This document shows positions 1 through 60,273 of a stretch of DNA of 60,273 nucleotides, piece by piece. Under the pieces are notes generated by a model, which did no database searches, was not told where the DNA came from, and worked only from the letters and a program-made list of their open reading frames with translations. Source of the stretch: a virus (Duplodnaviria > Heunggongvirae > Uroviricota > Caudoviricetes); IMG/VR virus record IMGVR_UViG_2778261541_000006, positions 1 through 60,273 of that record; one strand, 5' to 3'. The position numbers and the translations under genes are program-made. Numbering within the stretch: position 1 is the stretch's first letter; each line of letters opens with the position of its first letter.

Positions 1-362
1 CCATCAGCAAAAGGGGATGATAAGTTTATCACCACCGACTATTTGCAACAGTGCCTTTTTAACCCAGGGCGTTCAGCCTTTTTGCCGCTCGCCTTGTCCT
101 CAAAAATTAGCTCACATCCTGCGCTTTCAAGGGCATTTCGTTGTAAAGCAGTGTTTTGTTCATTTGTTGATACGCGTACATAGCCAATTAGCATATTTTC
201 TGCTCACCATAGTTATTCATAGCAAGCTGCGGATTTTAATTAACAGAAACCAGTGTGTGTGGAAATCACAAAGTGCATACCGTGCCCCAATGATGTTTTA
301 TTGAAAAGCGGGGTTACTTTAATGTTGATTTAACCATATTTTTTATAACCATCCTTGGAGGC

Positions 363-7609: not shown

Positions 7610-7815
7610 ATACTAACAGATCGTCTATGTGGCTAGAATCGTTCGAGTTTAGCGATTAAACGGAAGTTCTGGTCGATTATGATTAGTGCATATTCATGCA
7701 CAGGCACACAAAATCTGGAGATATTGATCAGCGTTTATGTATAGTTTGTAATATAAAATCGCCTTGAACGGAGTTTGTGCGTTATGAGAATCAATCTTAA
7801 CTCTGGAGTAAGATA

Positions 7816-8184: not shown

Positions 8185-8390
8185 CTCATTTACCACAGTT
8201 AAAACCCCGCTTCATTGCGGGGTTTGCATCATGCGCCAATAAAAGCTATTTATTCTGCGTCAAGTTGTAACATCTAATCCACTATTATATATCGTTATGT
8301 TTGGCATATAACAGATAATTAAATGAATTATATCCAGATCTAATTTTATGCGGTTCTGGAACCCGGCTGCGTACTATATAATAGAAAAAA

Positions 8391-9746
8391 TCAGAGTCTA
8401 TCAAAAATAGAGCCTTTTCTCGGTACAAATATTTTCTCATACAGTCGAGTAGCGTAATCATCTGTCATGCCTGAAACATAGTCGCAAATGACGCGCATTT
8501 TTTTATCATCACCTTTTGCTTCCTCTTGATTATATTTCTTTCGAGTTTCTGTCGGGAGAAAACGTATTGGGTCATTTGCCAGTACATTGAATAGTTCCAC
8601 AATCAGTTTCTGACCTTTGAACTCTAATAGTTGGACGTTTTCGTGCTGAATAACTTTGTTCCTAACCAGCTCAAAAATGGCTTTACGTAACTCTTCTACC
8701 GCGGCAGGAAGTGCCACTTTATAGCGTAAAATTTTACTTTTGAAATCAGAGTTCTGCACTTCAAGCTTAACGCTAGTGATCATCAGATGAACAAGTGTCC
8801 CTATGCACTCCTTGCGTAGATAACTTTCGCCGAACAGTTTTTCAGCTACATCATCGGCTTTTAGATTAAACGAGTCGCATTGGCAAGCTGCAAATAAATG
8901 GGATTTGTCCTCGAAGTGCTCCTCCCACATTTTTTTGTCGATCATCTTCAGAGAAATTGCGTCTTCAAGATCATGGAGTGAGTAGGATATCTCATCAGCC
9001 AAGTCCATAATCGTTGTATCCAGTGCTTTATATATTGTTTCCTTGTGCTTATTCAACGCGGTAGTTTTTACCGTTTTGAATAACTTAACATCATCACTAT
9101 CAAAAGGTTGGAGTGCGAATCTAACAGTGTTCTCCTCAGAGTCCAGGTAACATTTCGGGGGCTTAAATTCGGATGATTTAAACAACCACTCATTGCTTCT
9201 TGGCTGTAACTGGCTGTAAGCCCTCTCATTGACGACCTCTGAATAGCTTGCTGGATATTTCAGTACGCCTAAAATAAGTCTACGGGTGGGATCCAGCCCA
9301 TTGGTTTCGGTGTACTTATCCAGTTTGGAGAGTATACGCAGTGTCTGCCCGTTACCTTCAAAGCCGCCATAGGATCTCATGCAGTAGTTTAGTGCGACCT
9401 CACCACCATGACCGAAGGGGGGATGTCCTATATCATGAGCAAGGCAGATAGCCTGCATCAGGCTTGGGTCAGGTAAGAATTTACCCCCCTCATCTGTATC
9501 GCGCTTAGACAACTGAGACAAGATACCGCCGCCAATTTGCGCTACTTCCATAGAGTGAGTTAGCCGCGTACGGTAGAAATCGCTTTCGCCCAATCCCAAC
9601 ACCTGCGTCTTCGATTGTAATCTCCTAAAAGCGGAAGAGTGGATTAACCGGGAAAGATCACGTTCATACTCCGACCTTATCTCATTCGGGCGGGTGGTAT
9701 TGTACCCTTGACGCTCATACCAAGTATTTTCTTTGCAGTGTGTCAT
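8391..9746 (-). CDS. dGTP triphosphohydrolase-like HD-domain protein (Dgt family)
   Basis: Translation has the HD phosphohydrolase signature (RLTHSMEVAQIGG ... LAHDIGHPPFGHGGE) and an N-terminal RLIHSSAFRRLQSKTQV motif typical of Dgt-like dGTPases; start placed at Met34 of the track ORF (8391..9845), which has an AAAGGA RBS. Confidence 0.7.
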   Translation of the reverse strand: MTHCKENTWYERQGYNTTRPNEIRSEYERDLSRLIHSSAFRRLQSKTQVLGLGESDFYRTRLTHSMEVAQIGGGILSQLSKRDTDEGGKFLPDPSLMQAICLAHDIGHPPFGHGGEVALNYCMRSYGGFEGNGQTLRILSKLDKYTETNGLDPTRRLILGVLKYPASYSEVVNERAYSQLQPRSNEWLFKSSEFKPPKCYLDSEENTVRFALQPFDSDDVKLFKTVKTTALNKHKETIYKALDTTIMDLADEISYSLHDLEDAISLKMIDKKMWEEHFEDKSHLFAACQCDSFNLKADDVAEKLFGESYLRKECIGTLVHLMITSVKLEVQNSDFKSKILRYKVALPAAVEELRKAIFELVRNKVIQHENVQLLEFKGQKLIVELFNVLANDPIRFLPTETRKKYNQEEAKGDDKKMRVICDYVSGMTDDYATRLYEKIFVPRKGSIFDRL

Positions 9747-9924
9747 ACGTGTTCCTTTGGGCAGGATAGAGCAAGTCGCCTGCTTAATTGCTGAAGAAAG
9801 AAATACAAATTTGTAACGCTGTGGATCTTCTTTATGCGTCCACAATCAGTAAATATTGGATACTTGCAAGGTGCGCGAAACACTAAAGATTGTCAATTAA
9901 TAATTAACACCTCTTATAGTTACT

Positions 9925-10483: not shown

Positions 10484-10651
10484 TTTTCTTACCCAATAAA
10501 ACAAATTAATTAGAGCAATAATGTATATCTTTGAAACGTAGCTAACAAGTGATTTGCATTATCCTGTGCCTTCTAAAGGGATCGAGTCAGTCGGTATTGG
10601 CTGTGAATGGGTGTTTGTCCTGGAGCGTAAAAATTCGCTTATGAGGTCTTT

Positions 10652-11208
10652 ATGAAGGGAAAAACAGCCGCAGGAGGCGGTGCAATTTGCGCTATCGCGG
10701 TGATGATTACCATCGTGATGGGTAATGGCAATGTGCGAACCAACCAGGCGGGGCTTGAGCTTATCGGAAACGCTGAAGGTTGCCGACGTGATCCATACAT
10801 GTGCCCGGCGGGGTATGGACTGATGGGATCGGTAATACACACGGGGTAACGCCGGGTGTGCGAAAAACCGACCAGCAAATCGCCGCTGATTGGGAAAAGA
10901 ATATCCTGATCGCTGAACGCTGTATTAATCAGCACTTCCGGGGCAAAGACATGCCCGATAATGCCTTCAGTGCAATGACAAGCGCGGCATTCAATATGGG
11001 ATGCAATAGCTTACGGACCTACTACAGCAAAGCGCGAGGCATGCGAGTAGAAACGTCCATCCACAAGTGGGCGCAGAAAGAGGAATGGGTGAATATGTGT
11101 AACCATCTCCCTGATTTCGTGAACAGTAACGGCGTGCCCCTGCGAGGTTTAAAGATTCGCCGTGAAAAAGAACGCCAGCTTTGCCTGACGGGGCTGATCA
11201 ATGAATAA
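10652..11208 (+). pseudogene. lyz: SAR endolysin Lyz, interrupted by a -1 frameshift
   Basis: Two ORFs in different frames (10652..10849 and 10801..11208) together reproduce the P1 Lyz sequence as I recall it (SAR domain, Cys13, Glu42, Cys44, Cys51); the frame breaks inside a G run near 10809-10813. Confidence 0.7.
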
Positions 11209-11455
11209 ACTCCGGCAGCTCCGCCGACTTTCGACAATGAAGTTATCGCTGGCGGCGATAGTTTTCGACTCGATTTTCATGGCGGTATATGTGCTCAATG
11301 AGACGTGGCCACTGGAACCGCTATTATATGCCGGGCTTCGGCTGTGCCTGACATTTTTGAGCATGGCTGCGAGATTGATGCAGCAGAAAGAAACCGCTTC
11401 AGATTGTCCACGCCGCGCGGTGCGCAAATATATGGCACGCAGGCGAAGGCGATAA
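11201..11455 (+). CDS. small membrane protein downstream of lyz (LydD-like position)
   Basis: 84-aa ORF with a hydrophobic segment and basic C-terminus, overlapping the lyz stop. Confidence 0.35.
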   Translation: MNKLRQLRRLSTMKLSLAAIVFDSIFMAVYVLNETWPLEPLLYAGLRLCLTFLSMAARLMQQKETASDCPRRAVRKYMARRRRR

Positions 11456-11499: not shown

Positions 11500-12835
11500 T
11501 TATCCGGTGCGCCGTAAAATCCCGTCCTTCAGGGAGGGGATATAAGGCGTGGTTTTCCACCTAACTGTTTTTGTTTAAAATAGTGGGATGAAGCGACTAC
11601 AAGCATTTAAATTCCAGTTAAGACCCGGTGGTCAACAGGAGCGTCAAATGAGGCTCTTTGCCGGAGCTTGTCGTTTCGTTTTCAATCGTGCACTGGCACT
11701 TCAGAATGAGAATTATGAGGCCGGGAATAAATACATCCCTTACACGAAAATGGCTTCCTGGTTGGTTGAGTGGAAAAAAGACACTGAAACCGAATGGCTT
11801 AAAGATTCTCCCTCACAGCCATTGCAGCAGTCACTGAAAGACCTTGAGCGGGCCTACAAAAATTTCTTCCAGAAGCGGGCGGCTTTTCCCCGATTCAAAA
11901 AGCGGGGACAGAATGATGCATTCCGCTACCCGCAGGGTGTTAAGCTCGACCAGGAAAACAGCCGTATTTTTCTGCCGAAACTTGGCTGGATGCGCTACCG
12001 TAACAGCCGGCAGGTCACGGGGATTGTGAAAAATGTCACTGTCAGCCAGTCCTGCGGTAAATGGTACATCAGTATTCAGACAGAAAGTGAAGTATCCACT
12101 CCTGTTCACCCTTCAGCATCAATGGTCGGACTGGATGCTGGCGTGGCCAGGCTCGCCACGCTGTCAGATGGCACAGTCTTTGAGCCTGTAAACAGTTTCC
12201 AGAAAAACCAGAAAAAGCTGGCGAGACTTCAGCGCCAGTTAAGCCGCAAGGTCAGATTCAGCAACAACTGGCAGAAGCAGAAACGCAAAATACAGCAACT
12301 GCACTCCCGTATCGCAAATATCCGCAGAGACTACCTTCATAAAGTCACAACGATCATCAGCAAAAACCACGCAATGATTGTCATTGAGGATTTGAAGGTT
12401 AAACACATGTCAAAGTCAGCGGCGGGTACGATAAGTCAGCCGGGTCGCAATGTCCGGGCAAAATCAGGTTTAAACCGTTCGATACTGGATCAGGGCTGGT
12501 ATGAAATGCGCCGCCAGCTTGAGTACAAGCAGCTCTGGCGTGGCGGTCAGGTGCTTGCTGTTCCGCCAGCGTACACAAGCCAGCGTTGCGCGTGCTGTGG
12601 TCATACAGCGAAAGAAAATCGCCTGTCACAAAGTAAATTCAGATGCCAGGTATGTGGATATACAGCGAACGCCGATGTAAACGGCGCTCGTAACATTTTA
12701 GCGGCGGGGCACGCCGTTCTTGCCTGTGGAGGGATGGTGCAGTCAGGCCGCCCGTTGAAGCAGGAACCCACCGAAATGATTCAGGCGACAGCCTGAACGT
12801 AGCAGGAATCCACGCCCGTCAGGGCGTGGAGGGTG

Positions 12836-12860
<25 letters not shown>
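11500..12860 (+). mobile_element. IS200/IS605-family element (IS609/InsQ-like), tnpB only
   Basis: Contains a full-length TnpB ORF; no tnpA (Y1 HUH transposase) ORF adjacent; imperfect palindrome CCACGCCCGTCAGGGCGTGG just 3' of tnpB is typical of a right-end hairpin; boundaries approximate. Confidence 0.5.
11588..12796 (+). CDS. tnpB: TnpB (InsQ-like) RuvC/zinc-finger nuclease of IS200/IS605 family
   Basis: 402-aa translation is near-identical, from memory, to E. coli InsQ (IS609 OrfB); C-terminal CxxC...CxxC zinc finger (CACCGH...CQVCGY). Confidence 0.85.
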
Positions 12861-15632: not shown

Positions 15633-18600
15633 ATGAACAAGCTATCTATGTGGGTGTTTCGCTGTTCAAGTGTCAGCGAAATATTAAAATACATTAGGGC
15701 AATAACATCTCACCGAGCGCCGATTAAATACGGCGTGGAAAAGGTGGAAGGCAAAAGCTATGACCGACTGCGCCGGGAGGCGAATCAGAAGGCGATAGAT
15801 TTGCTTAATTCGCTGGTGGACGGCGCGACACTGACAGATGAACAGCGCCAGATCCTGGCTGGGTACACCGGTGAAGGCGGCATTGGCGGGTCCGTCTCCG
15901 AATATTACACACCAAAGCCGATCGCTGAAGGTGTCTGGGAGATCATGAAGCTCTACGGCGCGGACGTAGGTAACACTCTGGAACCATCGGCGGGAACCGG
16001 CGTTTTTAATGAGACAAAGCCGGTTGGTACGGTGATGACCGCGACTGAGATCAGCAGTGTTTCCGGTCGTATAAACCAGTTGTTACACCCGGAAGACAGC
16101 GTACAGATTTCCCCGTTCGAACAGCTGGCTGTAAGCACGCCTAACGATTCATTCGACCATGTTGTGGGTAACGTTCCGTTCGGTGGTCGTGATAACACAC
16201 GCAACATCGATAAGCCTTACGCAGAAGAAACGGACATGGGTTCTTACTTCATGCTCCGCATGCTGGACAAGATAAAGCCTAGCGGATTCATGTGTGTGAT
16301 TGTGCCGCCGTCCATTGTTTCAGGTTCAAACATGAAGCGGTTACGCCTGCGCCTATCCCGTAAAGCTGAATTTCTTGGCGCTCACCGCTTGCCTACCGGT
16401 ACTTTTGACGCAAACGGGACCAGTACGGTCGTTGACGTGGTGCTGATGCGCAAACATCCGGCGGAGATGGCTGAGAAAATCCCCCTGGTGGATGAAGGCA
16501 CTCTTGAATCGGCAAATGTGCTTTGGCCAACGTTTATTTCTGGCAAGTGGTTTGAAAAGGATGGCCGCCGGTTTGTTCATGGCACCCAGGAAAAGGGCTT
16601 CCAGGGGCGTATTGAGGTTCGTGCCGACGGGCAGATTGATAACCAGGCTCTTAAAGCGAAGCTGATTCATCGTTTCGAAAGTCGTATCGACTGGTCTTTG
16701 CTCGATATGGCTGAACCGTCACCGACCGCAGATGTTGTTGATGAAGGGGAAATGCGCCTGATTAATGGCGTATGGCAAAAATATGCTGGTGGTCGCTGGA
16801 TTGAAGCTGATGCCGGTAAGGCGCTTAAGATTGATGCTGCCAGTTATGGCGCGGATAGCTGGGAGGCTCTTCAGCGTAACCTGACTACAACAGAAGGCCG
16901 TCTCGGTATGACATTTACCCAGATGGCAAATGTCCGCGATAAGTACACCACATCAATCAGCGACGATATGGTGCAGCTGGTGGACTGGATTAACAGCCAG
17001 CCTGAAAAATACCGTGAACGCTTGTATCGTGGGGCGATGATTGGCCGGATGTTAATTGAATATCAGGATATGAAGGCCGCCGGGCATAGTGCTGAACAAA
17101 TCGAACAGCAGCGCCTTTCTCTGGTATCCCGTTTGCAGGCAGAGATTGACCGTTTTGGTAACCCCGGTCGCGGTCCGATAGCTAAATTATCAGGAAGCGG
17201 TGCGCGCGCCTGGTTTGCTTTCCGTGGTGCAATTAAGCTGGATGGCACTATTTCTGACGAGCTGACAGGAAAGCTGGTTACGCATGATTCCAGCGCCAGT
17301 TATGACTCCACCAGCTATCAGGACACCCTGCGTTATCTCTATAGCGATCTTACCCGCGATCCAATCCAGCTCGATGATTTCCGCCTTGCGTTTACCGGCG
17401 AACTGCCAGCCAGTGATGAAGAGTTGCTTAATTTATTGGCCAGCACCCCTGGTATTGCGGTTTCACCGTATGGCGGGATTGTTCCGTTCGCCCGCGCCAC
17501 CAGCGGCGACATTAACGAGATAGTGGCTCCAAAACAGGAATTTCTTGCCACACTCCCCGACGGTCCAGTAAAGAACAACGTCCTTAATCAGCTGGCAGCG
17601 ATCGAAGAGAAGCGCATCAAGACGCCAGCAGAGAATATCCGCTTTAAGCTCAATAGCCGTTGGTTCGACCGCTCCGTCATTCTGGAGTTTTTGCAGGAAA
17701 ACGGCTATCCGGATCTGCGCTATGTGCAGTCAGTGCAGCTGGAAGGCGACGAAATGGTTTCTGACACCTATCACGGTGGTGATGGTCTGTTCGTCGGGCA
17801 CCGATACGGTGTCGTCCAGCGCAAGGATAAAGAAACAGGCGAGATCCGCTACGAGTGGGACCGTAAATCAGGTGAAAACGCGACCGGGTTCCCGGCACAG
17901 CTGGAAAAGTATCTCAATGGTGCGCGTATCGGTGGCAAAGATAGCGCGACGGCGAACGGCTACCGCGAGCAGATGGCACTGCTTGAGGACCAGTTCAATA
18001 AGTGGATCAAGACGCACGATCGCTACGATGAGCTGGTTGCCAAATACAACGATGTGTTCAATAGCAATATCCCGTATGAACACTCTGGCGATCCGCTTGG
18101 GTTGAAGGGATTAAGCGGTAAGCGCCAGCCATTTGATTACCAGAATAGCGAGGTGCGCCGACTGTCCGAAGATGGGCGCGGCATCCTGGGCTTCGGCACC
18201 GGGCTGGGTAAAACGACGACCGCGCTGGCGCTTGAGGCGTTCAACTATGAGAACGGTCGCTCCACCCGTACTGCTTATGTAGTGCCTAAATCAGTGCTGG
18301 AAAACTGGTATTACGAAGCAAAAGAGTTCCTGAGTGAAGAGGCATTCAGTAACTACCTGTTCGTCGGTCTTGATGTGCTGATGGATGGCGATCAGATTCG
18401 CCAGGTGCCGGTGCTCAATGAGAACGGTAAACCTGTTCTTGGTACTGATGGCACTCCAGTTATGCGCGATGCTCTTAAGCTGGCAGATGAAGCCACTATC
18501 ACGGCGCGGATGAACGCGATCCCGCACTCAAACTACCGTGCAGTCGTGTTTACCAAAGAACAATACGCCCGCATTCCGCTACGTGATGACACCGTAGATG

Positions 18601-21600
18601 AGCATGCACAAGACATGCTTTATGACTTCGTTGCTGCCGGGCGTGTGGCCAGCGCAATGGACTCCGATTCCCATCGCAAAGAGGCGGCGCGTCGCCGGGT
18701 ATTGTCGGAGTATTCAGATACCGGTACCGAAAAAGCAGAGAAGTATCCGTACTTTGAGGATATGGGCTTCGACAGCGTGATTGCTGACGAAGGCCACAAC
18801 TACCGCAATAGCTATAAAAATGGTCGCGAAGCGTCACAGCTGGCCTATCTGCCCACCAGCGCGGTGGCGCAATCGGCGCGAGATATGGCAATCAAAAACG
18901 CGTACCTGATGAAAAAGAATGGCGGGCGCGGACCGGTTCTCCTGACTGCAACGCCAGTCGTTAACACCCCGATCGATGCATACAACATGCTTTCTCATGT
19001 TCTGCCGAAGGAATACTGGCAGAAGATGGGGATCTACAGTCCTGATGACTTCGTTAAATTCTTCGGCAAGACCAGGCTGGAAACGGTACAGAAAATCAGC
19101 GGCGAAGTTGAAGAAAAAATGGCGCTGGTGGGTTTTGAAAACCTTGATGCGCTGCGCGGCATATTCCATCGCTGGACAACGCTTAAAACGGCGGAAGACG
19201 TTAAGGATACCGTGGAGATCCCGGAACTGGACGAACACCAGCAGGATGCACCACTTACTGAAGAACAACTGGCGGCGTATGAAGAATTGCGTCAGCAGGC
19301 GGAAGCGGCAGCAAAAGCCAACAATGGCGTAACGACCTCGGTCAATGAAGACGGCGTGATTGAGCACGAGAAAGCCAGTCCGATCTTCTCAATAATCAGG
19401 GATATGGACCGCGTATGTACTGACATGGACCTGTACTATCGCCGGATCACCTATCGTTTCCTGCCGGAGTACGCCGATGCGGTGCAGCAGCTGGCGGACA
19501 GTTTGCCTAAACAAGCCACCAGCGAAGACGACGACAGTGATGATTCAATCACGCAGCAATCGCAATACTCCCTGATAGATAAGGGCGAGTTTATTCAGTT
19601 GCAGGTTCCGGAAGCGTTCGAGCAGGAAGTGAATAAGCGCCTGGCCAAGTTTGGCATTGACGAACAGACCGTAACTCACCCCGTTACACCCAAATACGCG
19701 AAGCTGATCGCCACGCTGAAGGAGTTTTTCCCGGAAGGTAAGCAAATCATCTTCACCGATGAAAAAACGCAGCACCAGAAGCTCAAGCGCATTATCTGCA
19801 ATGCTCTTAACCTTGAACCTTCAAAGGTGGGGATCCTGAATGCTCAGACGGTTGCCGAGGCAGGTAAAACCGGTAAGAAACTGAAAGCGGTTAAACCGCC
19901 GAAAGAGTTACCGGATGAACCAACAGATGCACAGATAGCGAAATACAACGAGCAAATGGTTCTGTATGACGCCTATATCGCGCAGCAAAATGAAATGTCG
20001 TTGGGCGGTCTGGAAAAGATTGCAGCCGACTTCCAGGAGGGCCGGACTCCGATCATCATCTGCAACAAAAAGGCAGAGGTGGGTATCAACCTGCATCGAG
20101 GAACGACTGACATCCATCATCTGACGTTGCCATGGACACCAGCCAGTATCGCACAGCGTAACGGTCGCGGTGCCCGAGTTGGCTCCAACCGTGCAAGCGT
20201 TCGCGTTCATTACTACTGCGGCAAGGGTTCTTTCGATGAATACCGACTGAAGACGCTGAAACGTAAAGCAGGCTGGATCTCCGATATCCTCCGTTCAGAT
20301 AAGTCAGAAATGGAGAACGCCGACGCCAACGATATGATCGAAATGCAGATGTATACCGCTAAGGATGATGGCGAACGTCTGGCAATGATGCAGGTTCAAA
20401 TGGATAAGGCGAAAGCCGCGCAACGCGCTCGCCAGAAAGAACAGGCTACTATCGACCTTCAGAACTACATCAAGGCGCAGCACGCAGCTGGCGAGGATGT
20501 GGAGGTACTTACCGCTGAATTAGAGCGAAGCAAAGCGGAACTTGAAAAGACCTCCGCCGAGGTAGCTAAATTCAAACAGGCGGTAATGGCCAAAGCAGCT
20601 GATAACGCAGACTGGAAGGCCCGCTGGGGTAGCGTCCATCACACAGACCGTACGTTGTTAGCACAGTATCGCGCGTCGTTGAAAAGCGCCATTCAGCGCA
20701 AGGCTAATATCTCTCAAGCCATCTCCCGCTATGAGAAATTATTGAACCGTACTCAGAAGGCCGCGACGGATATCAAACGCCTGCGCCCGCTGGTGGAGGA
20801 TGCAATAAATAAAGGCATTCTGGATGTTGATCCTGACCTGGTTAACCATGCGAGTGAGTTCCTTGTTATCGGCGATCGCTCATGGCGTGTAGGCCAATAC
20901 TACGATTGTGCCGGTGATATCGTTCGCATTAAGTCGCTGGACTTCGACAGCCAGCGCGCAGACGTGGAGATCATCTTTACCTTAAGAGGCACCAAATCGG
21001 GTAACTGGGATGTGAAGACGCTGGATAAACAGGTGGATGTAACTCCCGATGAAGATGCTGTTATGCAGAAAATCAGTGGTGGCGTCTCCATCGCCGGGAT
21101 TAACGACATCATTTCCTGTGACGATTTCTACCGTTTCCAGCAGCGCGGCATGATCAAAATCACTGACTCATACGGCGTTCAGACTACAGAGTCAGGCTAT
21201 AGCATTGATTTTGTTGGTACCTATACGGACCCACTGAAGCATGCGGTTTACCCGGATCGCCGTGACGGCGCGCTGAAGTCGTCAATTGCAAAATGGGTGC
21301 TTGGTATGATGTCGGAAGGGAATAACCGCCAGATCCGTTCGGCAGAAACATTCCTGGTTGAATTGTTTGGCTCCAATTATGGCGATGTAATCGCGTCATA
21401 CGGAGATACGCTATCCCCTGAAGCAATTCAGGAGAAAATAGCGGATGCGATCGCAAAAATGCCGGAGAAAACAAGCCAGGGGGCTACTCGTAACGGGGAT
21501 TCTGAACTTGAGGTCACCAATGCCATTTTCGGTACCCATGAGTTCCGGGCGTCAGATTATGAGATCACCACAGCACAGTTTGGCACCATTGGCATTTACA

Positions 21601-23160: not shown

Positions 23161-24465
23161 CTATATAAACTTAGATATAATATCGTGAATCTGTTGTAGC
23201 GGGATATCTTCCATCTCATTCTTAATAAGAGAGCGGTTAGATGCTGTCAGTGAAGGCCATTTTGTTTTCCAGGCTAGATATGCTCGCCATGAGCAGCCTG
23301 TTTCGTAAGGTTTATTCATATTAGTCATTGAGTGCTCAACCGCATGTATGTATTTTTTCTCAAAATTGGTTCCTTTTACTTCAAATAAACTACCGAAATA
23401 AATAAGCCATTTTGCCAAGTGTTCATACTGCTCCCATGCGCCAGGCTTTTTAGTAAGTTCTATTTTTTTATCTATTATATTACAAAAAACATTTAATACA
23501 TTTTCATTATTCCAGCTATATCCAGATGATGAAATGGAGGAAATGATATGATAAAAAGAATCCTCTAGCTTCAAGAACTCTATTTTATACTCTCTTCCGT
23601 TTTTTATTACCGATTTGATTGAGTGCCTCAATTTGTCTTTTATTTTTTTTGCTTCTGGAATTTTATCGTTAAGTTTTCTAAAGAAATCAGATACTTCTGT
23701 TTTATCTATAACCCTAACCCCATAGCAGGAAAAATAGTAATCTTTAATAGGTTGCAATAGTTCCCCTCGGGAAACAAGGAAAATATTGGAGGACATTACG
23801 TTGTCCCGTGAAAATACCTTATATTCATTTATAATAGCCTTTAGGTTCGCGTCACTTAGAGAATAGCCAAGGATAACAATAGTGTTTTCATGTAGAACTG
23901 TGCTTAGTTTATTAGAAAAGTAAGAATTACCATTTATAAATCTGAAATAATCCTCGCTAGTAACAACCATGTCTGATGGGGAGTCTATAGAACCGTGAAC
24001 ATGGTAGACTTTAACCTCACAATTATATTTTGGAATTGGCAGGCCGGGGGTGATTGTACACGTTCGATTCTCTCCAGCCAGCTTTTCTGCTAACTTGTCA
24101 TAATTTGTCGTAATTACTTTAAATGTGTTTTCTTTGAAAAAGTCTTGAATATATTCAATTGATGGATCAAGTTCGATTGAGGCTATGATTTTCTCAATCT
24201 CTTGGTAAATATTTTTCCCCGAAAGTATAAATTTTAGTGCAATAACCTGAGCAGCTTCTTCAAGGCTAAGGTCTTTTGCTTTTCCATCAGGAAATAATTC
24301 CTCTTTGAGTGAGTCACCATCCTTCAATAAACCGCACAGTTGCTCCAATAAAGATTGCCAACTTGGGGCTTTATCATCAGAAACAGCCTTTGAAAATCCA
24401 GTGCCTGTAAGAAAGCACAGCCTATGTGTAGCCGCTGCATAGGCAATTTCTATATACTCGCTCAT
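23161..24465 (-). CDS. SIR2-family protein (ThsA-like SIR2 domain) with uncharacterised C-terminal domain
   Basis: 434-aa ORF in a very AT-rich block; N-terminal half carries SIR2-type motifs in the same order as Thoeris ThsA (FLTGTGFS, TTNYDKL, HVHGS, ILGYSLSD); C-terminal 200 aa unrecognised. Confidence 0.7.
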   Translation of the reverse strand: MSEYIEIAYAAATHRLCFLTGTGFSKAVSDDKAPSWQSLLEQLCGLLKDGDSLKEELFPDGKAKDLSLEEAAQVIALKFILSGKNIYQEIEKIIASIELDPSIEYIQDFFKENTFKVITTNYDKLAEKLAGENRTCTITPGLPIPKYNCEVKVYHVHGSIDSPSDMVVTSEDYFRFINGNSYFSNKLSTVLHENTIVILGYSLSDANLKAIINEYKVFSRDNVMSSNIFLVSRGELLQPIKDYYFSCYGVRVIDKTEVSDFFRKLNDKIPEAKKIKDKLRHSIKSVIKNGREYKIEFLKLEDSFYHIISSISSSGYSWNNENVLNVFCNIIDKKIELTKKPGAWEQYEHLAKWLIYFGSLFEVKGTNFEKKYIHAVEHSMTNMNKPYETGCSWRAYLAWKTKWPSLTASNRSLIKNEMEDIPLQQIHDIISKFI

Positions 24466-37574: not shown

Positions 37575-37740
37575 AAACACCTCGTGTACTCGTTATGTGT
37601 ACACAATTATAAACTTCACAGGCATAAAGCACCAGCACTTTGCGGCTTAACAAACCTCTAGGCAGGTCATTCGTAGGAACTGCTAAAGCATCCAAGTTGC
37701 TGTAGAATCACCGCCAATTACATAAGCCTGAAAGAAGTGG

Positions 37741-39303
37741 ATGAAAATGACAAGTATTCAACAACGTGCAGAGCTTCATCGTCAAATCTGGCAAATTGCT
37801 AACGATGTCAGGGGTTCGGTCGATGGATGGGATTTTAAGCAATACGTTCTGGGCGCACTTTTCTACCGTTTTATCAGCGAAAATTTTTCCAGTTATATTG
37901 AAGCCGGTGATGACAGTATCTGTTATGCGAAACTGAATGACAGCGTAATTACTGATGACATTAAAGACGATGCCATCAAAACCAAAGGTTACTTCATCTA
38001 CCCCAGTCAGCTTTTCTGCAACGTAGCTGCGAAAGCAAATACCAATGACAGACTGAATGCGGATTTAAACAGCATCTTCGTTGCTATCGAAAGTTCTGCT
38101 TACGGTTACCCTTCAGAAGCTGACATCAAAGGTTTGTTTGCTGATTTCGATACTACCAGTAACCGCCTGGGTAACACCGTTAAAGATAAAAATGCCCGCC
38201 TGGCTGCGGTTCTGAAAGGAGTTGAAGGGCTAAAACTTGGTGACTTCCACGAACATCAGATTGACCTGTTCGGTGACGCCTATGAGTTCCTGATTTCTAA
38301 CTATGCGGCAAATGCCGGTAAGTCAGGCGGTGAGTTCTTTACACCGCAGCACGTCTCCAAGCTGATTGCACAACTGGCTATGCACGGGCAGACCAACGTT
38401 AACAAAATCTACGACCCGGCAGCAGGTTCCGGCTCACTGTTGTTGCAGGCTAAAAAGCAGTTTGATAACCATATCATTGAAGAAGGCTTTTTCGGACAGG
38501 AAATCAACCATACGACCTATAACCTGGCACGTATGAACATGTTTTTGCACAACATCAACTACGACAAGTTTGATATCAAGCTGGGCAATACGCTGACTGA
38601 GCCGCACTTCAGAGATGAAAAACCGTTTGATGCCATCGTTTCTAACCCGCCGTATTCGGTGAAATGGATTGGCAGCGATGACCCGACGCTGATTAACGAT
38701 GAACGTTTTGCCCCGGCTGGCGTCCTGGCCCCCAAATCCAAAGCTGACTTCGCCTTTGTACTACATGCGCTGAACTATCTTTCGGCCAAAGGTCGCGCTG
38801 CGATTGTTTGCTTCCCGGGTATTTTTTACCGTGGCGGCGCAGAGCAGAAAATCCGTCAGTATCTGGTCGACAATAACTATGTCGAAACCGTGATTTCACT
38901 GGCACCGAACCTGTTCTTTGGCACCACCATTGCCGTAAACATTCTGGTTCTGTCTAAACATAAAACGGATACCAACGTTCAGTTTATTGACGCCAGCGAA
39001 CTGTTCAAAAAAGAGACTAACAACAATATCCTGACCGATGCCCATATCGAACAGATTATGCAGGTATTTTCCAGCAAGGAAGATGTTGCTCATCTGGCAA
39101 AATCTGTCACGTTTGAGGCCGTTGTCGCTAATGACTATAACCTGTCGGTAAGCAGCTATGTGGAAGCGAAAGATAACCGCGAAATTATCGATATCGGTGA
39201 GCTGAATGCTGAGCTGAAAACCACGGTCAGCAAAATCGACCAGTTGCGTAAAGATATTGATGCAATTGTGGCTGAAATTGAAGGCTGCGAGGTGCAGAAA
39301 TGA
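37741..39303 (+). CDS. hsdM: type I restriction-modification methyltransferase subunit HsdM
   Basis: 520-aa ORF with N6-adenine MTase motifs (NPPYS at [10 protein letters not shown]; AdoMet-binding [10 protein letters not shown]). Confidence 0.9.
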
Positions 39304-40508
39304 GCGAGCTGAGCTATCTGGAAAAACTGTTGGATGGGGTTGAGGTTGAGTGGGCAACATTGGGTTCTATGGCAGATATCGGTACTGGAAGCTCAAATCG
39401 TCAGGATGAAAGCGAAAATGGAATTTATCCATTCTATGTTCGCTCAAAGAATATCTTGAAGTCAGATACCTTTGAATTTGATGAGGTAGCAATAGTCATT
39501 CCTGGTGAAGGTGGAATTGGCGACATATTTCACTATGTTGAGGGGAAATATGCTCTACATCAAAGGGCGTATAGAATTCGTATCACAACTAATGCCGTAG
39601 ACACGAAGTTTTTGTATTACTTCATGTCATCTAGCTTTAAGCAGTACATCTTGACAAAAAGTGTGGGTGCTACCGCCATTTCGATAAGAAAACCCATGCT
39701 GGAAGGATTTAAAGTTCCCATTCCTAGCCCGGACAACCCGGAAAAGTCCCTAGCCATCCAGTCTGAAATCGTTCGGATTCTGGATAAGTTTACTGCACTT
39801 ACCGCTGAGCTAACCGCTGAGCTAACCGCTGAGCTTAACATGCGTAAAAAACAGTACAACTTCTATCGTGACCAGTTGTTGAGTTTTAAAGAGGGGGAGG
39901 TTGAGTGGAAAAGTCTGGAAGATATTGCTTTATTTAGACGGGGTTCATTTCCACAGCCATATGGAAATAGTGAATGGTATGATGGAGAAGGTTGCATGCC
40001 TTTTGTTCAGGTAGCTGATGTGGCTGATTCAGGATTTACATTACACACAAAAACCAAACAACAGATTTCTAAGATTGCACAAAGCAAGAGCGTTTTTGTT
40101 GAGGCTGGAACAATTGTTGTGACACTGCAAGGTACTATTGGTCGAGTAGCAATAACACAGTACGATTGTTATGTGGATAGAACTCTTGCAATATTTACTA
40201 ACTTTAAAGTAAAAATAAACAAAAAATACTTTGCTTATCAACTAAAAGCTAAATTCGATTCAGAGAAAGAATTTGCAAGAGGAAGTACTTTGAAGACAAT
40301 TACAAAAGAAGAGTTTTCTAAGTTCCAATTACCTCTTCCCTCAATAAACGAACAAAATCGTATAGTATCACTATTGGATAAGTTCGATACACTGGCTCAT
40401 TCAATAAAACAAGGTCTCCCGCGTGAAATCGAGTTGCGCCAGAAACAATACGAGTACTATCGTGATTTACTGTTCAGTTTCCCGAAACCTGAAACTGTCA
40501 GTAATTAA
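39300..40508 (+). CDS. hsdS: type I R-M specificity subunit HsdS, type IC (EcoR124-like)
   Basis: 402-aa ORF overlapping hsdM stop by 4 nt; two target-recognition domains separated by a central [12 protein letters not shown] repeat region. Confidence 0.85.
39800..39835 (+). repeat. 3 x 12-bp tandem repeat (ACCGCTGAGCTA) encoding TAEL x3 in the hsdS central conserved region
   Basis: Three direct copies, the third with one substitution; in-frame within hsdS. Confidence 0.8.
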
Positions 40509-40629
40509 TTGACCGTTGCTACCGACCGGGCCACCTTAACATCCGGTCTGTATATAGACTATTTTTTACGTGCCGGAAGTCACTCTTAACGCCCTTCCGA
40601 CCCTTGCCAGACGGCACAAAGGATGCGCT

Positions 40630-43600
40630 ATGACTCATCAAACACACACCATTGCTGAATCCAATAACTTTATCGTTCTTGATAAGTACATCAAAGCTGA
40701 GCAAACAGGCAACAGCTATCAGAGCGAATCGGACCTGGAACAGGAACTGATTCAGGACCTGCGAAATCAGGGCTATGAATTTATATCCGTAAAATCTCAG
40801 TCGGCGATGCTGGCCAATGTTCGACAACAGCTTCAGAGCCTCAATGGTGTGGTGTTTAATGACAGCGAGTGGCGGCGTTTCACGGAGCAGTATCTGGACA
40901 ACCCGAGCGATGGAATTCTGGATAAGACCCGTAAAATCCATATCGACTATATTTGCGACTTTATTTTTGATGACGAGCGACTTGAGAACATCTATTTGAT
41001 AGATAAAAAGAATCTCATGCGCAATAAGGTGCAGATTATCCAGCAGTTTGAACAGACGGGTTCTCATGCTAACCGTTATGACGTCACGATCCTGGTTAAT
41101 GGTTTACCGCTGGTGCAAATCGAACTAAAAAAACGCGGGGTGGCGATTCGTGAGGCTTTCAACCAGATACATCGTTACAGTAAAGAGAGTTTTAACAGCG
41201 AAAATTCCCTGTTTAAGTATCTGCAACTGTTTGTCATTTCTAACGGCACCGATACCCGTTATTTTGCCAACACGACAAAGCGCGATAAAAACAGTTTTGA
41301 CTTCACCATGAACTGGGCTAAAGCAGACAATACACTGATTAAAGACCTCAAAGACTTTACCGCTACCTTTTTCCAGAAACATACTCTGCTTAATGTTCTG
41401 GTGAACTACAGCGTTTTTGACAGCAGTCAGACACTACTGGTAATGCGACCGTACCAGATTGCCGCCACCGAGCGCATTCTGTGGAAAATTAAGAGTTCCT
41501 TTACAGCGAAGAACTGGTCAAAACCGGAAAGCGGTGGGTATATCTGGCACACTACCGGTTCTGGTAAAACCCTCACCAGCTTTAAAGCCGCGCGTCTGGC
41601 AACAGAGCTGGACTTTATTGATAAAGTCTTCTTCGTGGTCGACAGGAAAGACCTCGATTACCAGACCATGAAGGAATATCAGCGTTTTTCGCCAGACAGC
41701 GTCAACGGCTCGGAAAATACCGCAGGACTTAAACGAAATCTGGACAAGGACGATAACAAAATTATCGTCACTACTATTCAGAAACTCAATAACCTGATGA
41801 AAGCAGAAAGCGACCTGCCTGTATATAATCAGCAAGTGGTGTTTATATTTGATGAATGCCACCGCAGCCAGTTTGGAGAAGCGCAGAAAAACCTGAAGAA
41901 GAAATTCAAACGCTATTATCAGTTTGGTTTTACCGGCACACCTATTTTCCCGGAAAACGCCTTAGGCTCAGAAACGACCGCCAGCGTATTTGGTCGTGAA
42001 TTGCATTCGTATGTAATTACCGATGCGATTCGTGATGAAAAAGTGCTCAAATTCAAGGTGGACTACAACGATGTGCGGCCACAGTTTAAGTCTTTAGAGA
42101 CAGAAACTGACGAGAAAAAACTAAGTGCGGCTGAAAATCAGCAGGCGTTTCTTCATCCCATGCGTATACAGGAAATTACGCAATATATTCTGAATAACTT
42201 CCGCCAGAAGACGCACCGTACTTTCCCTAGCGCAAAAGGTTTTAATGCTATGTTGGCAGTGAGCAGCGTGGATGCTGCAAAAGCCTATTACGCGGCGTTT
42301 AAACGGTTACAAGAGGAAGCCGCTAATAAATCTGCAACTTATAAACCGCTGCGTGTTGCGACAATCTTCTCCTTTGCCGCTAATGAAGAACAAAATGCCA
42401 TTGGTGAAATTTCCGATGAAACTTTTGATACCAGCGCAATGGACAGCAGTGCTAAAGAGTTTCTTGACGCTGCAATTCGTGAGTATAACAGCTATTTTAA
42501 AACTAACTTCAGCACCGACAGTAACGGTTTTCAGAACTACTATCGCGATTTAGCCCAACGGGTTAAAAATCAGGATATCGATCTGTTAATTGTCGTGGGG
42601 ATGTTTTTAACTGGCTTCGATGCTCCAACATTGAACACGCTATTCGTCGATAAAAACCTGCGTTTTCACGGCTTGATGCAGGCATTTTCCCGCACCAACC
42701 GTATTTATGATGGAACTAAAACCTTCGGTAATATCGTCACTTTCCGGGATCTGGAACGCTCAACTATTGATGCCATAACGCTGTTTGGTGACAAAAACAC
42801 CAAAAATGTGGTTTTAGAAAAGAGTTATGCAGAGTATATGGAAGGCTTTACTGATGCTGCCACTGGTGAAGCTAAGCGCGGCTTTATGGCAGTAGTTTCA
42901 GAACTGGAACAACGGTTCCCTGACCCTGCCAGTATTGAAAGTGAAAAAGAGAAGAAAGACTTCGTTAAACTGTTTGGTGAATACCTGCGTGCCGAGAACA
43001 TCCTGCAAAACTATGATGAATTTGCCACGCTGAAAGCCCTGCAACAAATCGATCTTAGCGATCCTGTTGCGGTAGAAAAATTCAAAGAAGAACATTATGT
43101 GGATGATGAAAAGTTCGCTGAATTGCAAACGATTCGTCTCCCTGCTGAACGCAAGATTCAGGATTATCGTTCTGCCTATAACGATATTCGTGACTGGCAG
43201 CGCCGCGAGAAAGAAGCTGATAAAAAAGAAAAATCAACCACTGACTGGGATGACGTGGTTTTTGAGGTCGATTTGCTGAAGTCTCAGGAAATAAACCTGG
43301 ATTATATCCTTGGACTGATTTTCGAACACAACAGACAAAATAAAGGCAAGGGCGAAATGATCGAAGAGGTCAAACGCTTAATTCGTTCAAGCCTGGGGAA
43401 CCGGGCGAAAGAGGGCCTGGTGGTCGATTTTATTCAGCAAACGAACCTGGATGATTTACCAGACAAAGCCAGTATCATTGAGGCATTCTTTACGTTTGCT
43501 CAACGCGAACAGCAACGTGAAGCAGAAGCATTGATAAAAGAAGAAAATCTCAATGAAGATGCAGCAAAACGCTATATTCGCACGTCTTTAAAACGCGAAT

Positions 43601-43746
43601 ACGCCACCGAAAATGGCACAGAATTAAACGAAACATTACCAAAACTTAGTCCGTTGAATCCGCAATATAAAACGAAAAAACAGGCAGTTTTCCAGAAAAT
43701 CGTCTCGTTTATTGAGAAGTTTAAAGGCGTAGGCGGAAAAATATAG
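40630..43746 (+). CDS. hsdR: type I R-M restriction subunit HsdR (EcoR124-family)
   Basis: Start at internal Met ([14 protein letters not shown]) with AAAGGA RBS; helicase motifs (TGSGKT, DECHRSQ) and PD-(D/E)xK region; N-terminus matches my recollection of EcoR124I HsdR. Confidence 0.9.
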
Positions 43747-43765
43747 CCCAATTCGTGTTTTTCTT

Positions 43766-43794
43766 GCGGGTTCTTAATTAAACCCGCAAGAGCT
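43766..43794. terminator. hairpin terminator after hsdR
   Basis: Inverted repeat CTTGCGGGTT-CTTAATTAA-ACCCGCAAG just after the hsdR stop. Confidence 0.4.
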
Positions 43795-43998
43795 CGTGGG
43801 GTTCCAAATGGCTAATATACTCCCCTTACCCATGCGCGACGATGCCGCCAAAAGTGATAGAGAACAGCCAGAAATAGATCGCGGTCATAATGATTTTGAA
43901 TGCCGTGTTCATATCTTCAGCTCCTGTGATTGATTGGATATATGCCGCGCCCCTTGCGGCATGTTTTTATTTTCACACACTCTGTTTTAAAAATCAAG

Positions 43999-59989: not shown

Positions 59990-60017
59990 ATTACACTAAT
60001 AAATTTATTAGAGCAAT
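59990..60017. promoter_or_regulatory. overlapping C1 operator pair
   Basis: ATTACACTAATAAATTT (degenerate) overlapping AAATTTATTAGAGCAAT (perfect reverse consensus). Confidence 0.5.
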
Positions 60018-60176
60018 ATTGCTATAACGTCATGAGCAACACCACGAGTGTCTCCCTTACAAGACACAGAACGTCTGGCAAAAAGAGGTTCCACTCTGAA
60101 GCCACTGTCCTGATAAAGTTCTCTGATGTTTGGCGCGCCACTGTTAGTAATGAGAACCTTTGCACCTCGGCGATGA

Positions 60177-60273
<97 letters not shown>

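What the first reader, a model, noticed from the sequence alone, without database searches (positions are those of the whole stretch)
10652..11208. lyz (SAR endolysin) carries a -1 frameshift in a G homopolymer
Seen in sequence: the Lyz reading frame is split between ORFs 10652..10849 and 10801..11208; the first ends ...DPYMCPAGYGLMGSVIHTG and the second resumes with (P)GGVWTDGIGNTHGVTPG, consistent with loss of one G in the GCGGGG(G)TA run near 10809-10813. The total length (557 nt) is one base short of an intact 185-codon gene. Established: P1 Lyz needs Glu42 and the SAR-domain cysteines, which lie upstream of the break, but the catalytic domain lies downstream. Inference: either a homopolymer sequencing error or a genuine inactivating mutation that would make the prophage lysis-defective.
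Basis: partly seen in the sequence, partly recalled or inferred. Interest (0 to 1): 0.5.

Follow-up and report, generated by a model that had tools for sequence, protein, structure and literature searches.

The report
One-base deletion breaks P1 endolysin gene
The lysis enzyme gene (lyz) of a P1-like plasmid prophage in an E. coli draft genome has lost one G from a run of five, which splits the gene in two and most likely leaves the prophage unable to burst its host; this is an ordinary, very recent pseudogene.

Summary
Window 10652..11208 is the P1 SAR-endolysin gene lyz. It is 557 nt instead of 558 because the run GCGGGGGTA is GCGGGGTA here (G run 10810..10813). That is the only difference from the intact lyz of plasmid pJIE250_3, and adding one G restores the 185-aa protein. 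The break at codon 55 lies inside the catalytic motif E42-X8-C51-X5-T57. It gives a 65-aa N-terminal fragment and an untranslated remainder.

The window is the whole contig NLNJ01000025.1 of GCA_002229695.1. I judge the deletion more likely real than a sequencing error:
- Both contig ends stop exactly 55 nt into IS26 and IS100, the mark of a k=55 short-read assembly.
- It is the only frameshift found against two relatives across the aligned parts of the 60 kb, despite 260 homopolymers of 5 or more.
- An independent Logan assembly of run SRR6413647 is identical over 11,171 nt, including the 4-G run.

The same 4-G allele also occurs on a different lyz haplotype, in an Illumina-derived phage record and in several clearly noisy assemblies. 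The site is therefore prone to both mutation and error.

Since Lyz is P1's only endolysin, the expected result is a lysis-defective prophage. Low interest; nothing new in kind.

The parts
10547..10565 (+). Late promoter LPlyz (-22 box and -10), intact
   Evidence: The coordinates were transferred from the NC_005856 annotation. The 19-nt sequence AAGTGATTTGCATTATCCT is identical to P1.
10652..10849 (+). 5' fragment of lyz. Codons 1-54 are native (SAR domain with C13, then E42, C44, C51), followed by 11 out-of-frame codons (YGLMGSVIHTG) and a TAA stop.
   Evidence: The fragment has no Pfam hit. It is already on record as WP_274536788.1, 'hypothetical protein'.
10810..10813 (+). G4 run. It is G5 in the intact alleles, and this is the site of the 1-nt deletion.
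   Evidence: Alignments; the sequence itself.
10813..11208 (+). 3' remainder of lyz in the shifted frame, native codons 55-185 including T57. The mechanical ORF starts at a GTG at 10801.
   Evidence: PF00959 Phage_lysozyme matches profile positions 14-125 of 125. There are no differences from pJIE250_3 lyz downstream of the deletion.
11201..11455 (+). lydD (pinholin), intact. Its start overlaps the end of lyz.
   Evidence: The 84-aa product is identical to P1 LydD. Annotation is; the pinholin role is from PMC9025707.

Best explanation
A genuine, evolutionarily very recent one-base deletion has inactivated lyz, the only endolysin gene of a P1-like plasmid prophage. The likely cause is replication slippage (inferred) that shortened a G5 run to G4 at codons 53-55.

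Translation from the intact late promoter and start codon would yield a 65-aa peptide. It has the SAR membrane domain and residues E42, C44 and C51, then 11 wrong residues. It lacks T57 and about 70% of the lysozyme fold. The downstream 131 native codons have no signal or SAR domain, no E42 or C51, and no evident start of their own.

The prophage should therefore be unable to lyse its host on induction, while still being maintained as a plasmid. Loss of translational coupling or polarity may also lower expression of the overlapping pinholin gene lydD.

Shown: the lesion, its uniqueness within the contig, and its presence in a second assembly. Inferred: that it is in the DNA rather than in the reads, and the lysis-defective phenotype.
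For: Lesion:
- One gap in 558 columns against pJIE250_3 lyz, and no other difference.
- The repaired ORF gives the intact 185-aa protein.
- The intact protein matches the P1 lysozyme structures 1XJT and 1XJU.
- In the intact protein PF00959 spans residues 40-174. In the window only the 135-aa fragment hits it, from profile position 14.

Real rather than error:
- The window is the whole contig NLNJ01000025.1 of GCA_002229695.1.
- Homology to P1-like relatives stops 55 nt from each contig end.
- Those 55-nt tails are the termini of IS26 and IS100, which are multicopy repeats. This is the overlap left by a k=55 de Bruijn assembler of short reads.
- Against two relatives, lyz is the only clean frameshift found in the parts of the 60 kb that align with them. 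Over 19.9 kb aligned to pSJ2D-1 there are only 3 indels, and the other two are intergenic. The contig holds 260 homopolymers of 5 or more, up to T8.
- The Logan assembly of SRR6413647 is 100% identical over 11,171 nt, including the G4 run.
- The same allele on another haplotype is in ON470615.2, which came from HiSeq 2500 reads assembled with SPAdes (bioRxiv 10.1101/2022.06.29.498070).

Phenotype:
- Insertional inactivation of P1 lyz abolishes lysis on induction, and Lyz is P1's only endolysin (PMC9025707).
- The lysozyme triad motif is E-X8-D-X5-T (PMC9239132). In the repaired protein the corresponding positions 42, 51 and 57 are E, C and T.
Against: - No reads could be inspected.
- I could not establish whether SRR6413647 is an independent isolate or the read set behind the assembly. 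If it is the same read set, it rules out an assembler artefact but not a systematic read error.
- The same G5 to G4 change appears in assemblies that are clearly error-ridden. pSCLS1 has three homopolymer deletions in lyz. L056, L060, L064 and L065 have extra indels. So this run is also a recurrent site of sequencing error.
- The complete absence of further substitutions in the broken gene fits an error as well as a recent mutation.
- The short-read platform is inferred from the contig ends, not documented.
Confidence: 0.75

Rival explanations
1. Homopolymer sequencing or consensus error. The DNA really has five G, lyz is intact, and the prophage is lysis-competent.
For: - The lesion is a single-base loss in a G run, the classic error type.
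- The same change is seen in visibly noisy assemblies.
- Apart from the missing G, the gene is identical to an intact allele.
Against: - The contig ends carry the signature of a k=55 short-read assembly. For such data, consensus indels at a 5-base run are rare (general knowledge).
- No other frameshift was found against two relatives across the aligned parts of the 60 kb, despite 260 runs of 5 or more, including A7 and T8 runs.
- A second, k-mer-based assembly from SRR6413647 gives the same allele.
Confidence: 0.2
2. Leaky recoding. The tRNA-Gly on GGG (10811..10813) slips back one base onto G 10810 to 10812, where it can re-pair perfectly. The next codons then read GTA TGG, so a small amount of exactly wild-type Lyz is made and lysis is only delayed or reduced.
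For: Only the sequence geometry supports this. In C-GGGG-T a -1 P-site slip re-pairs perfectly and restores the native sequence A53-G54-V55-W56 (read).
Against: - There is no X XXY YYZ heptamer and no known stimulator. I did not look for a downstream structure.
- The 5-G allele is the overwhelming norm, so the 4-G state has not been selected as an expression strategy.
- Spontaneous slippage on a 4-base run is expected to be very rare (general knowledge).
Confidence: 0.03
3. The G run is a reversible on/off switch (contingency locus) that toggles lysis competence of P1-like phage-plasmids.
For: The same deletion is found on at least two lyz haplotypes: the pJIE250_3 type in the window, and the P1 type in ON470615.2 and others.
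Against: - The run is only 4 or 5 bases. Known phase-variable tracts are usually 7 or more (general knowledge).
- The 4-G allele is rare: 0 of 45 in IMG/VR. Among about 370 complete E. coli records that cover the site, no exact match to the 61-mer was found, and the one gapless match, pSCLS1, is in a noisy assembly.
- Much of the apparent recurrence is sequencing noise.
Confidence: 0.02

Closest known systems
Bacteriophage P1 Lyz (gp17), the prototype SAR endolysin (UniProt ENLYS_BPP1; PDB 1XJT, 1XJU)
   Same: - Same gene at the same locus, in the order ssb, then LPlyz, lyz, lydD and pro.
- The promoter and LydD are identical to P1.
- The repaired product differs from P1 Lyz at 2 of 185 residues.
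- The SAR domain, C13, E42, C44 and C51 are all present in the 5' fragment.
   Different: The reading frame is broken at codon 55, so no single polypeptide carries the full E-X8-C-X5-T motif or the full PF00959 domain.
Intact lysozyme WP_024220783.1 of P1-like plasmids pJIE250_3, pSJ2D-1 and pRHB25-C13_2
   Same: - The nucleotide sequence is identical over the whole gene except for the missing G.
- The neighbourhood is the same, including the TnpB element downstream.
   Different: These plasmids have five G and a 185-aa product.
lyz of Escherichia phage vB_EcoM-673R5 (ON470615.2), annotated as two hypothetical proteins of 65 and 135 aa
   Same: It has the same G5 to G4 deletion and the same pair of ORFs.
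   Different: - It lies on the P1-type lyz haplotype, with different synonymous SNPs and T instead of M in the out-of-frame tail. It is therefore an independent event.
- It was predicted in silico from an Illumina assembly.

Membership tests
P1-type SAR endolysin (T4-like lysozyme, Pfam PF00959) | Sequence homology to P1 Lyz over its whole length | tested here: met
   There is one gap and no mismatch against pJIE250_3 lyz, and about 98% identity to P1 lyz. The intact relative matches 1XJT over residues 1-185.
P1-type SAR endolysin (T4-like lysozyme, Pfam PF00959) | N-terminal SAR domain, Gly/Ala-rich and weakly hydrophobic, carrying Cys13 | tested here: met
   Residues 1-54 of the 65-aa product are identical to P1 Lyz, and C13 is present.
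P1-type SAR endolysin (T4-like lysozyme, Pfam PF00959) | Catalytic motif E-X8-D/C-X5-T on one polypeptide | tested here: not met
   E42 and C51 are in ORF 10652..10849. T57 is in the other frame. The motif definition is from PMC9239132.
P1-type SAR endolysin (T4-like lysozyme, Pfam PF00959) | Uninterrupted ORF of about 185 codons with a complete lysozyme domain | tested here: not met
   The span is 557 nt with a stop at 10847..10849. The 65-aa fragment has no Pfam hit, and the 135-aa fragment covers only profile positions 14-125.
P1-type SAR endolysin (T4-like lysozyme, Pfam PF00959) | Muralytic activity and holin-triggered lysis | not testable with these tools
   This needs induction of the lysogen or expression of the allele.
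Programmed frameshift or phase-variable homopolymer locus | Slippery heptamer (X XXY YYZ) or a long tract (7 or more), with both states common in the population | tested here: not met
   The tract is 4 or 5 G and there is no heptamer in TGC CCG GCG GGG TAT. The 4-G allele is absent from the 45 IMG/VR contigs with this stretch, and no exact 61-mer match was found among about 370 complete E. coli records; the one gapless match is in a noisy assembly.

The most novel reading that the evidence does not exclude
The G5 run in lyz is a genuine mutational hot spot through which P1-like phage-plasmids repeatedly, and perhaps reversibly, lose lysis competence. That would be a simple route to domestication of the plasmid by its host. 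A variant of this reading is that rare -1 slippage on the remaining GGGG still supplies a trickle of wild-type Lyz.
Probability: 0.06. Interest if true: 0.4.

Novelty: already known. Interest (0 to 1): 0.12.

Why it matters
The matter is practical rather than conceptual.
- If the deletion is real, this P1-like plasmid cannot complete a lytic cycle. Predictions of it as an 'intact' prophage, or as a transducing vehicle for the strain, would then be wrong.
- For annotation, the two ORFs should be merged into one frameshifted lyz pseudogene. The 65-aa fragment is currently on record as WP_274536788.1, a hypothetical protein.
- For surveys of phage-plasmid decay, the case is a warning. The same site is miscalled in noisy long-read assemblies, so counts of 'lyz pseudogenes' need read-level checks.

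Tried and rejected
- **Two separate genes.** Rejected. The single 185-aa ORF is the form found on well over 1,600 contigs, and one added G restores it exactly.
- **A generally error-prone assembly.** Rejected. A tblastn screen of all stop-to-stop ORFs of two relatives against the window flagged only lyz as a clean frameshift. The other flags were antisense ORFs over the same site, or regions where the relative itself is a pseudogene or is divergent.
- **Exact 4-G 61-mer in complete E. coli genomes and in PLSDB.** No exact match. The one gapless hit, pSCLS1, has three homopolymer deletions in lyz and a frameshifted ompC next to it.
- **4-G pattern in IMG/VR.** 0 hits, against 45 for 5 G.
- **Literature search for NLNJ01, GCA_002229695 or SRR6413647.** Nothing found. 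The relation between the run and the assembly therefore stays unknown.
- **An old pseudogene.** Rejected, because there are no further substitutions relative to an intact allele.
- **Not run.** I did not use the large protein homology searches or structure prediction. The gene is 98-100% identical to a solved, well-studied protein.

Full report
**What is in the sequence**

The region is the ssb/lyz/lydD/pro locus of P1-like plasmid prophages. It matched 19 phage records, 502 plasmid records and 502 E. coli records at 95-99.9% identity, nearly all annotated as lysozyme or Lyz.

The best matches are one base longer than the query. Aligning the 557-nt span with the 558-nt lyz of pJIE250_3 and of phage P1 shows a single gap in the window, inside GCGGGGGTA. 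There is no other difference from pJIE250_3. The G run in the window is 10810..10813. Inserting one G restores a 185-aa protein that is identical to the pJIE250_3 lysozyme and differs from P1 Lyz only at G144E and V183I.

**What the break does**

The intact protein matches the solved P1 lysozyme structures 1XJT and 1XJU over its whole length. Its Pfam lysozyme domain spans residues 40-174. T4-type lysozymes have the catalytic motif E-X8-D-X5-T (PMC9239132). In the repaired protein the corresponding positions are E42, C51 and T57, with C13 and C44 also present.

The deletion shifts the frame after G54. The first product keeps the SAR domain, E42, C44 and C51, but ends after 11 wrong residues. 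T57 and the rest of the fold are in the other frame. The 65-aa fragment has no Pfam hit, and the 135-aa ORF covers profile positions 14-125 only.

The late promoter LPlyz (10547..10565) and the overlapping pinholin gene lydD (11201..11455) are identical to P1. The lesion is therefore confined to lyz.

Insertional inactivation of P1 lyz abolishes lysis after induction, and Lyz is P1's only endolysin (PMC9025707). The expected phenotype is a lysis-defective prophage. This step is an inference.

**Mutation or sequencing error**

An exact look-up of the 65-aa product showed that the window is the whole contig NLNJ01000025.1 of assembly GCA_002229695.1. It also showed that a Logan assembly of run SRR6413647 carries the same product. 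That contig is 100% identical to the window over 11,171 nt.

Homology with P1-like relatives begins at window position 56 and ends at 60219. The remaining 55 nt at each end are multicopy sequences, with 22,257 and 5,333 places in complete E. coli genomes. They lie at the outer ends of IS26 and IS100. Tails of exactly 55 nt running into repeats at both ends are what a de Bruijn assembler with k=55 leaves, so I infer a short-read draft assembly.

The contig is also clean:
- Over 19.9 kb aligned to pSJ2D-1 there are three indels, and the other two are intergenic.
- A tblastn screen of all ORFs of two relatives found no other clean frameshift in the parts of the 60 kb that align with them.
- The contig contains 260 homopolymers of five or more bases, including A7 and T8 runs.

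Together these make a random homopolymer miscall unlikely, but they do not exclude one. I put the genuine mutation at about 0.75-0.8.

**Recurrence elsewhere**

The same 4-G allele is present in phage record ON470615.2 (vB_EcoM-673R5), where it is annotated as two hypothetical proteins of 65 and 135 aa. It sits there on the P1-type haplotype, with different synonymous SNPs, so it arose independently. That record came from HiSeq 2500 reads assembled with SPAdes (bioRxiv 10.1101/2022.06.29.498070).

The 65-aa product of that haplotype is on 20 contigs. Several of these carry extra single-base indels in lyz or ssb (L056, L060, L064, L065). Plasmid pSCLS1 has three homopolymer deletions in lyz beside a frameshifted ompC. 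Those are sequencing noise. A group of Logan contigs from runs ERR14686225, ERR14686228 and ERR14686368 is identical to reference P1 over lyz-lydD apart from this deletion, and I could not tell whether that is real.

The allele is rare overall:
- 0 of 45 IMG/VR contigs have it.
- There is no exact 61-mer match in complete E. coli genomes or PLSDB.
- The intact proteins are on at least 1000 and 673 contigs.
- Other rare lyz disruptions at other positions are also on record.

The run is thus a weak spot for both real slippage and miscalling. It is not a maintained polymorphism.

**Rival readings**

- A sequencing error remains possible, at about 0.2.
- A -1 slip of tRNA-Gly on GGGG would re-pair perfectly and restore the native sequence. 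There is no slippery heptamer and no sign of selection for the 4-G state, so I give it about 0.03.
- A phase-variable switch is unlikely for a run of 4 or 5 bases at this allele frequency, about 0.02.
- Two separate genes is excluded.

**Comparison with known systems, and verdict**

This is P1 lyz, the prototype SAR endolysin, at its normal locus and carrying a frameshift. As a sequence it belongs to the family. As a gene it fails two defining features, an uninterrupted ORF and the complete catalytic motif on one chain, so it should be annotated as a lyz pseudogene.

The missing G is the only difference from an intact allele, which means the event is very recent. The contig also shows other signs of wear. 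An IS100 end lies inside the 3' part of dmt, an IS26 lies at the other contig end, and a TnpB-only element sits between lydD/lydE and pro.

Nothing here is new in kind. Interest is low (0.12).

Noticed in passing
window 1-55 and 60219-60273: Both contig ends carry exactly 55 nt of insertion-sequence termini: the IS26 end at the start, and the IS100 (IS21-family) end upstream of istA at the finish. This is a k=55 de Bruijn assembly signature. It also means the P1-like plasmid is interrupted by IS26 and IS100 at these points.
   Followed up: yes
window about 60008-60219: By alignment to pRHB25-C13_2 (dmt CDS 16768..20055, minus strand), the window holds only the last 212 nt or so of the Dam-family methyltransferase gene dmt before the IS100 end. 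dmt therefore appears to be split by the IS.
   Followed up: partly
window 11504-12839 (TnpB ORF 11588..12796): A 1.3-kb IS200/IS605-family element that carries only TnpB (OrfB_IS605 and Cas12f1-like TNB domains) is inserted between lydD/lydE and the 3' end of pro, relative to P1. It replaces the last bases of lydE and supplies the stop of pro. The same insertion is present in pJIE250_3, pSJ2D-1 and pRHB25-C13_2.
   Followed up: partly
window 37741-43746: A complete type I restriction-modification system: hsdM 520 aa, hsdS 402 aa, hsdR 1058 aa. It lies in a stretch (about 37650-43822) that has no counterpart in the two fetched relatives, so it is cargo specific to this lineage.
   Followed up: partly
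window 8391-9749 (-) and 23161-24465 (-): Defence-type cargo genes flank the lysis and dar region: a dGTPase (HD plus HD_assoc domains, annotated in relatives as an anti-phage deoxyguanosine triphosphatase) and a SIR2-like protein.
   Followed up: no
L061-L064 (Logan contigs of ERR14686228, ERR14686368, ERR14686225, ERR14686239): Several runs of one project carry lyz-lydD identical to reference phage P1 (0 mismatches) except for the same G5 to G4 deletion. L064 also has a 1-nt deletion in ssb. This could be a laboratory P1 derivative with a real lyz frameshift, or a systematic long-read miscall at this run.
   Followed up: partly
window 7658, 7755, 8385-8390: Three intergenic A-run length differences against close relatives lie within 3 kb upstream of lyz. 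At 7755 and at 8385-8390 the relatives differ among themselves, so those two look like natural variation. At 7658 all three relatives agree against the window, so that one is private to the window and cannot be told apart from an error.
   Followed up: partly
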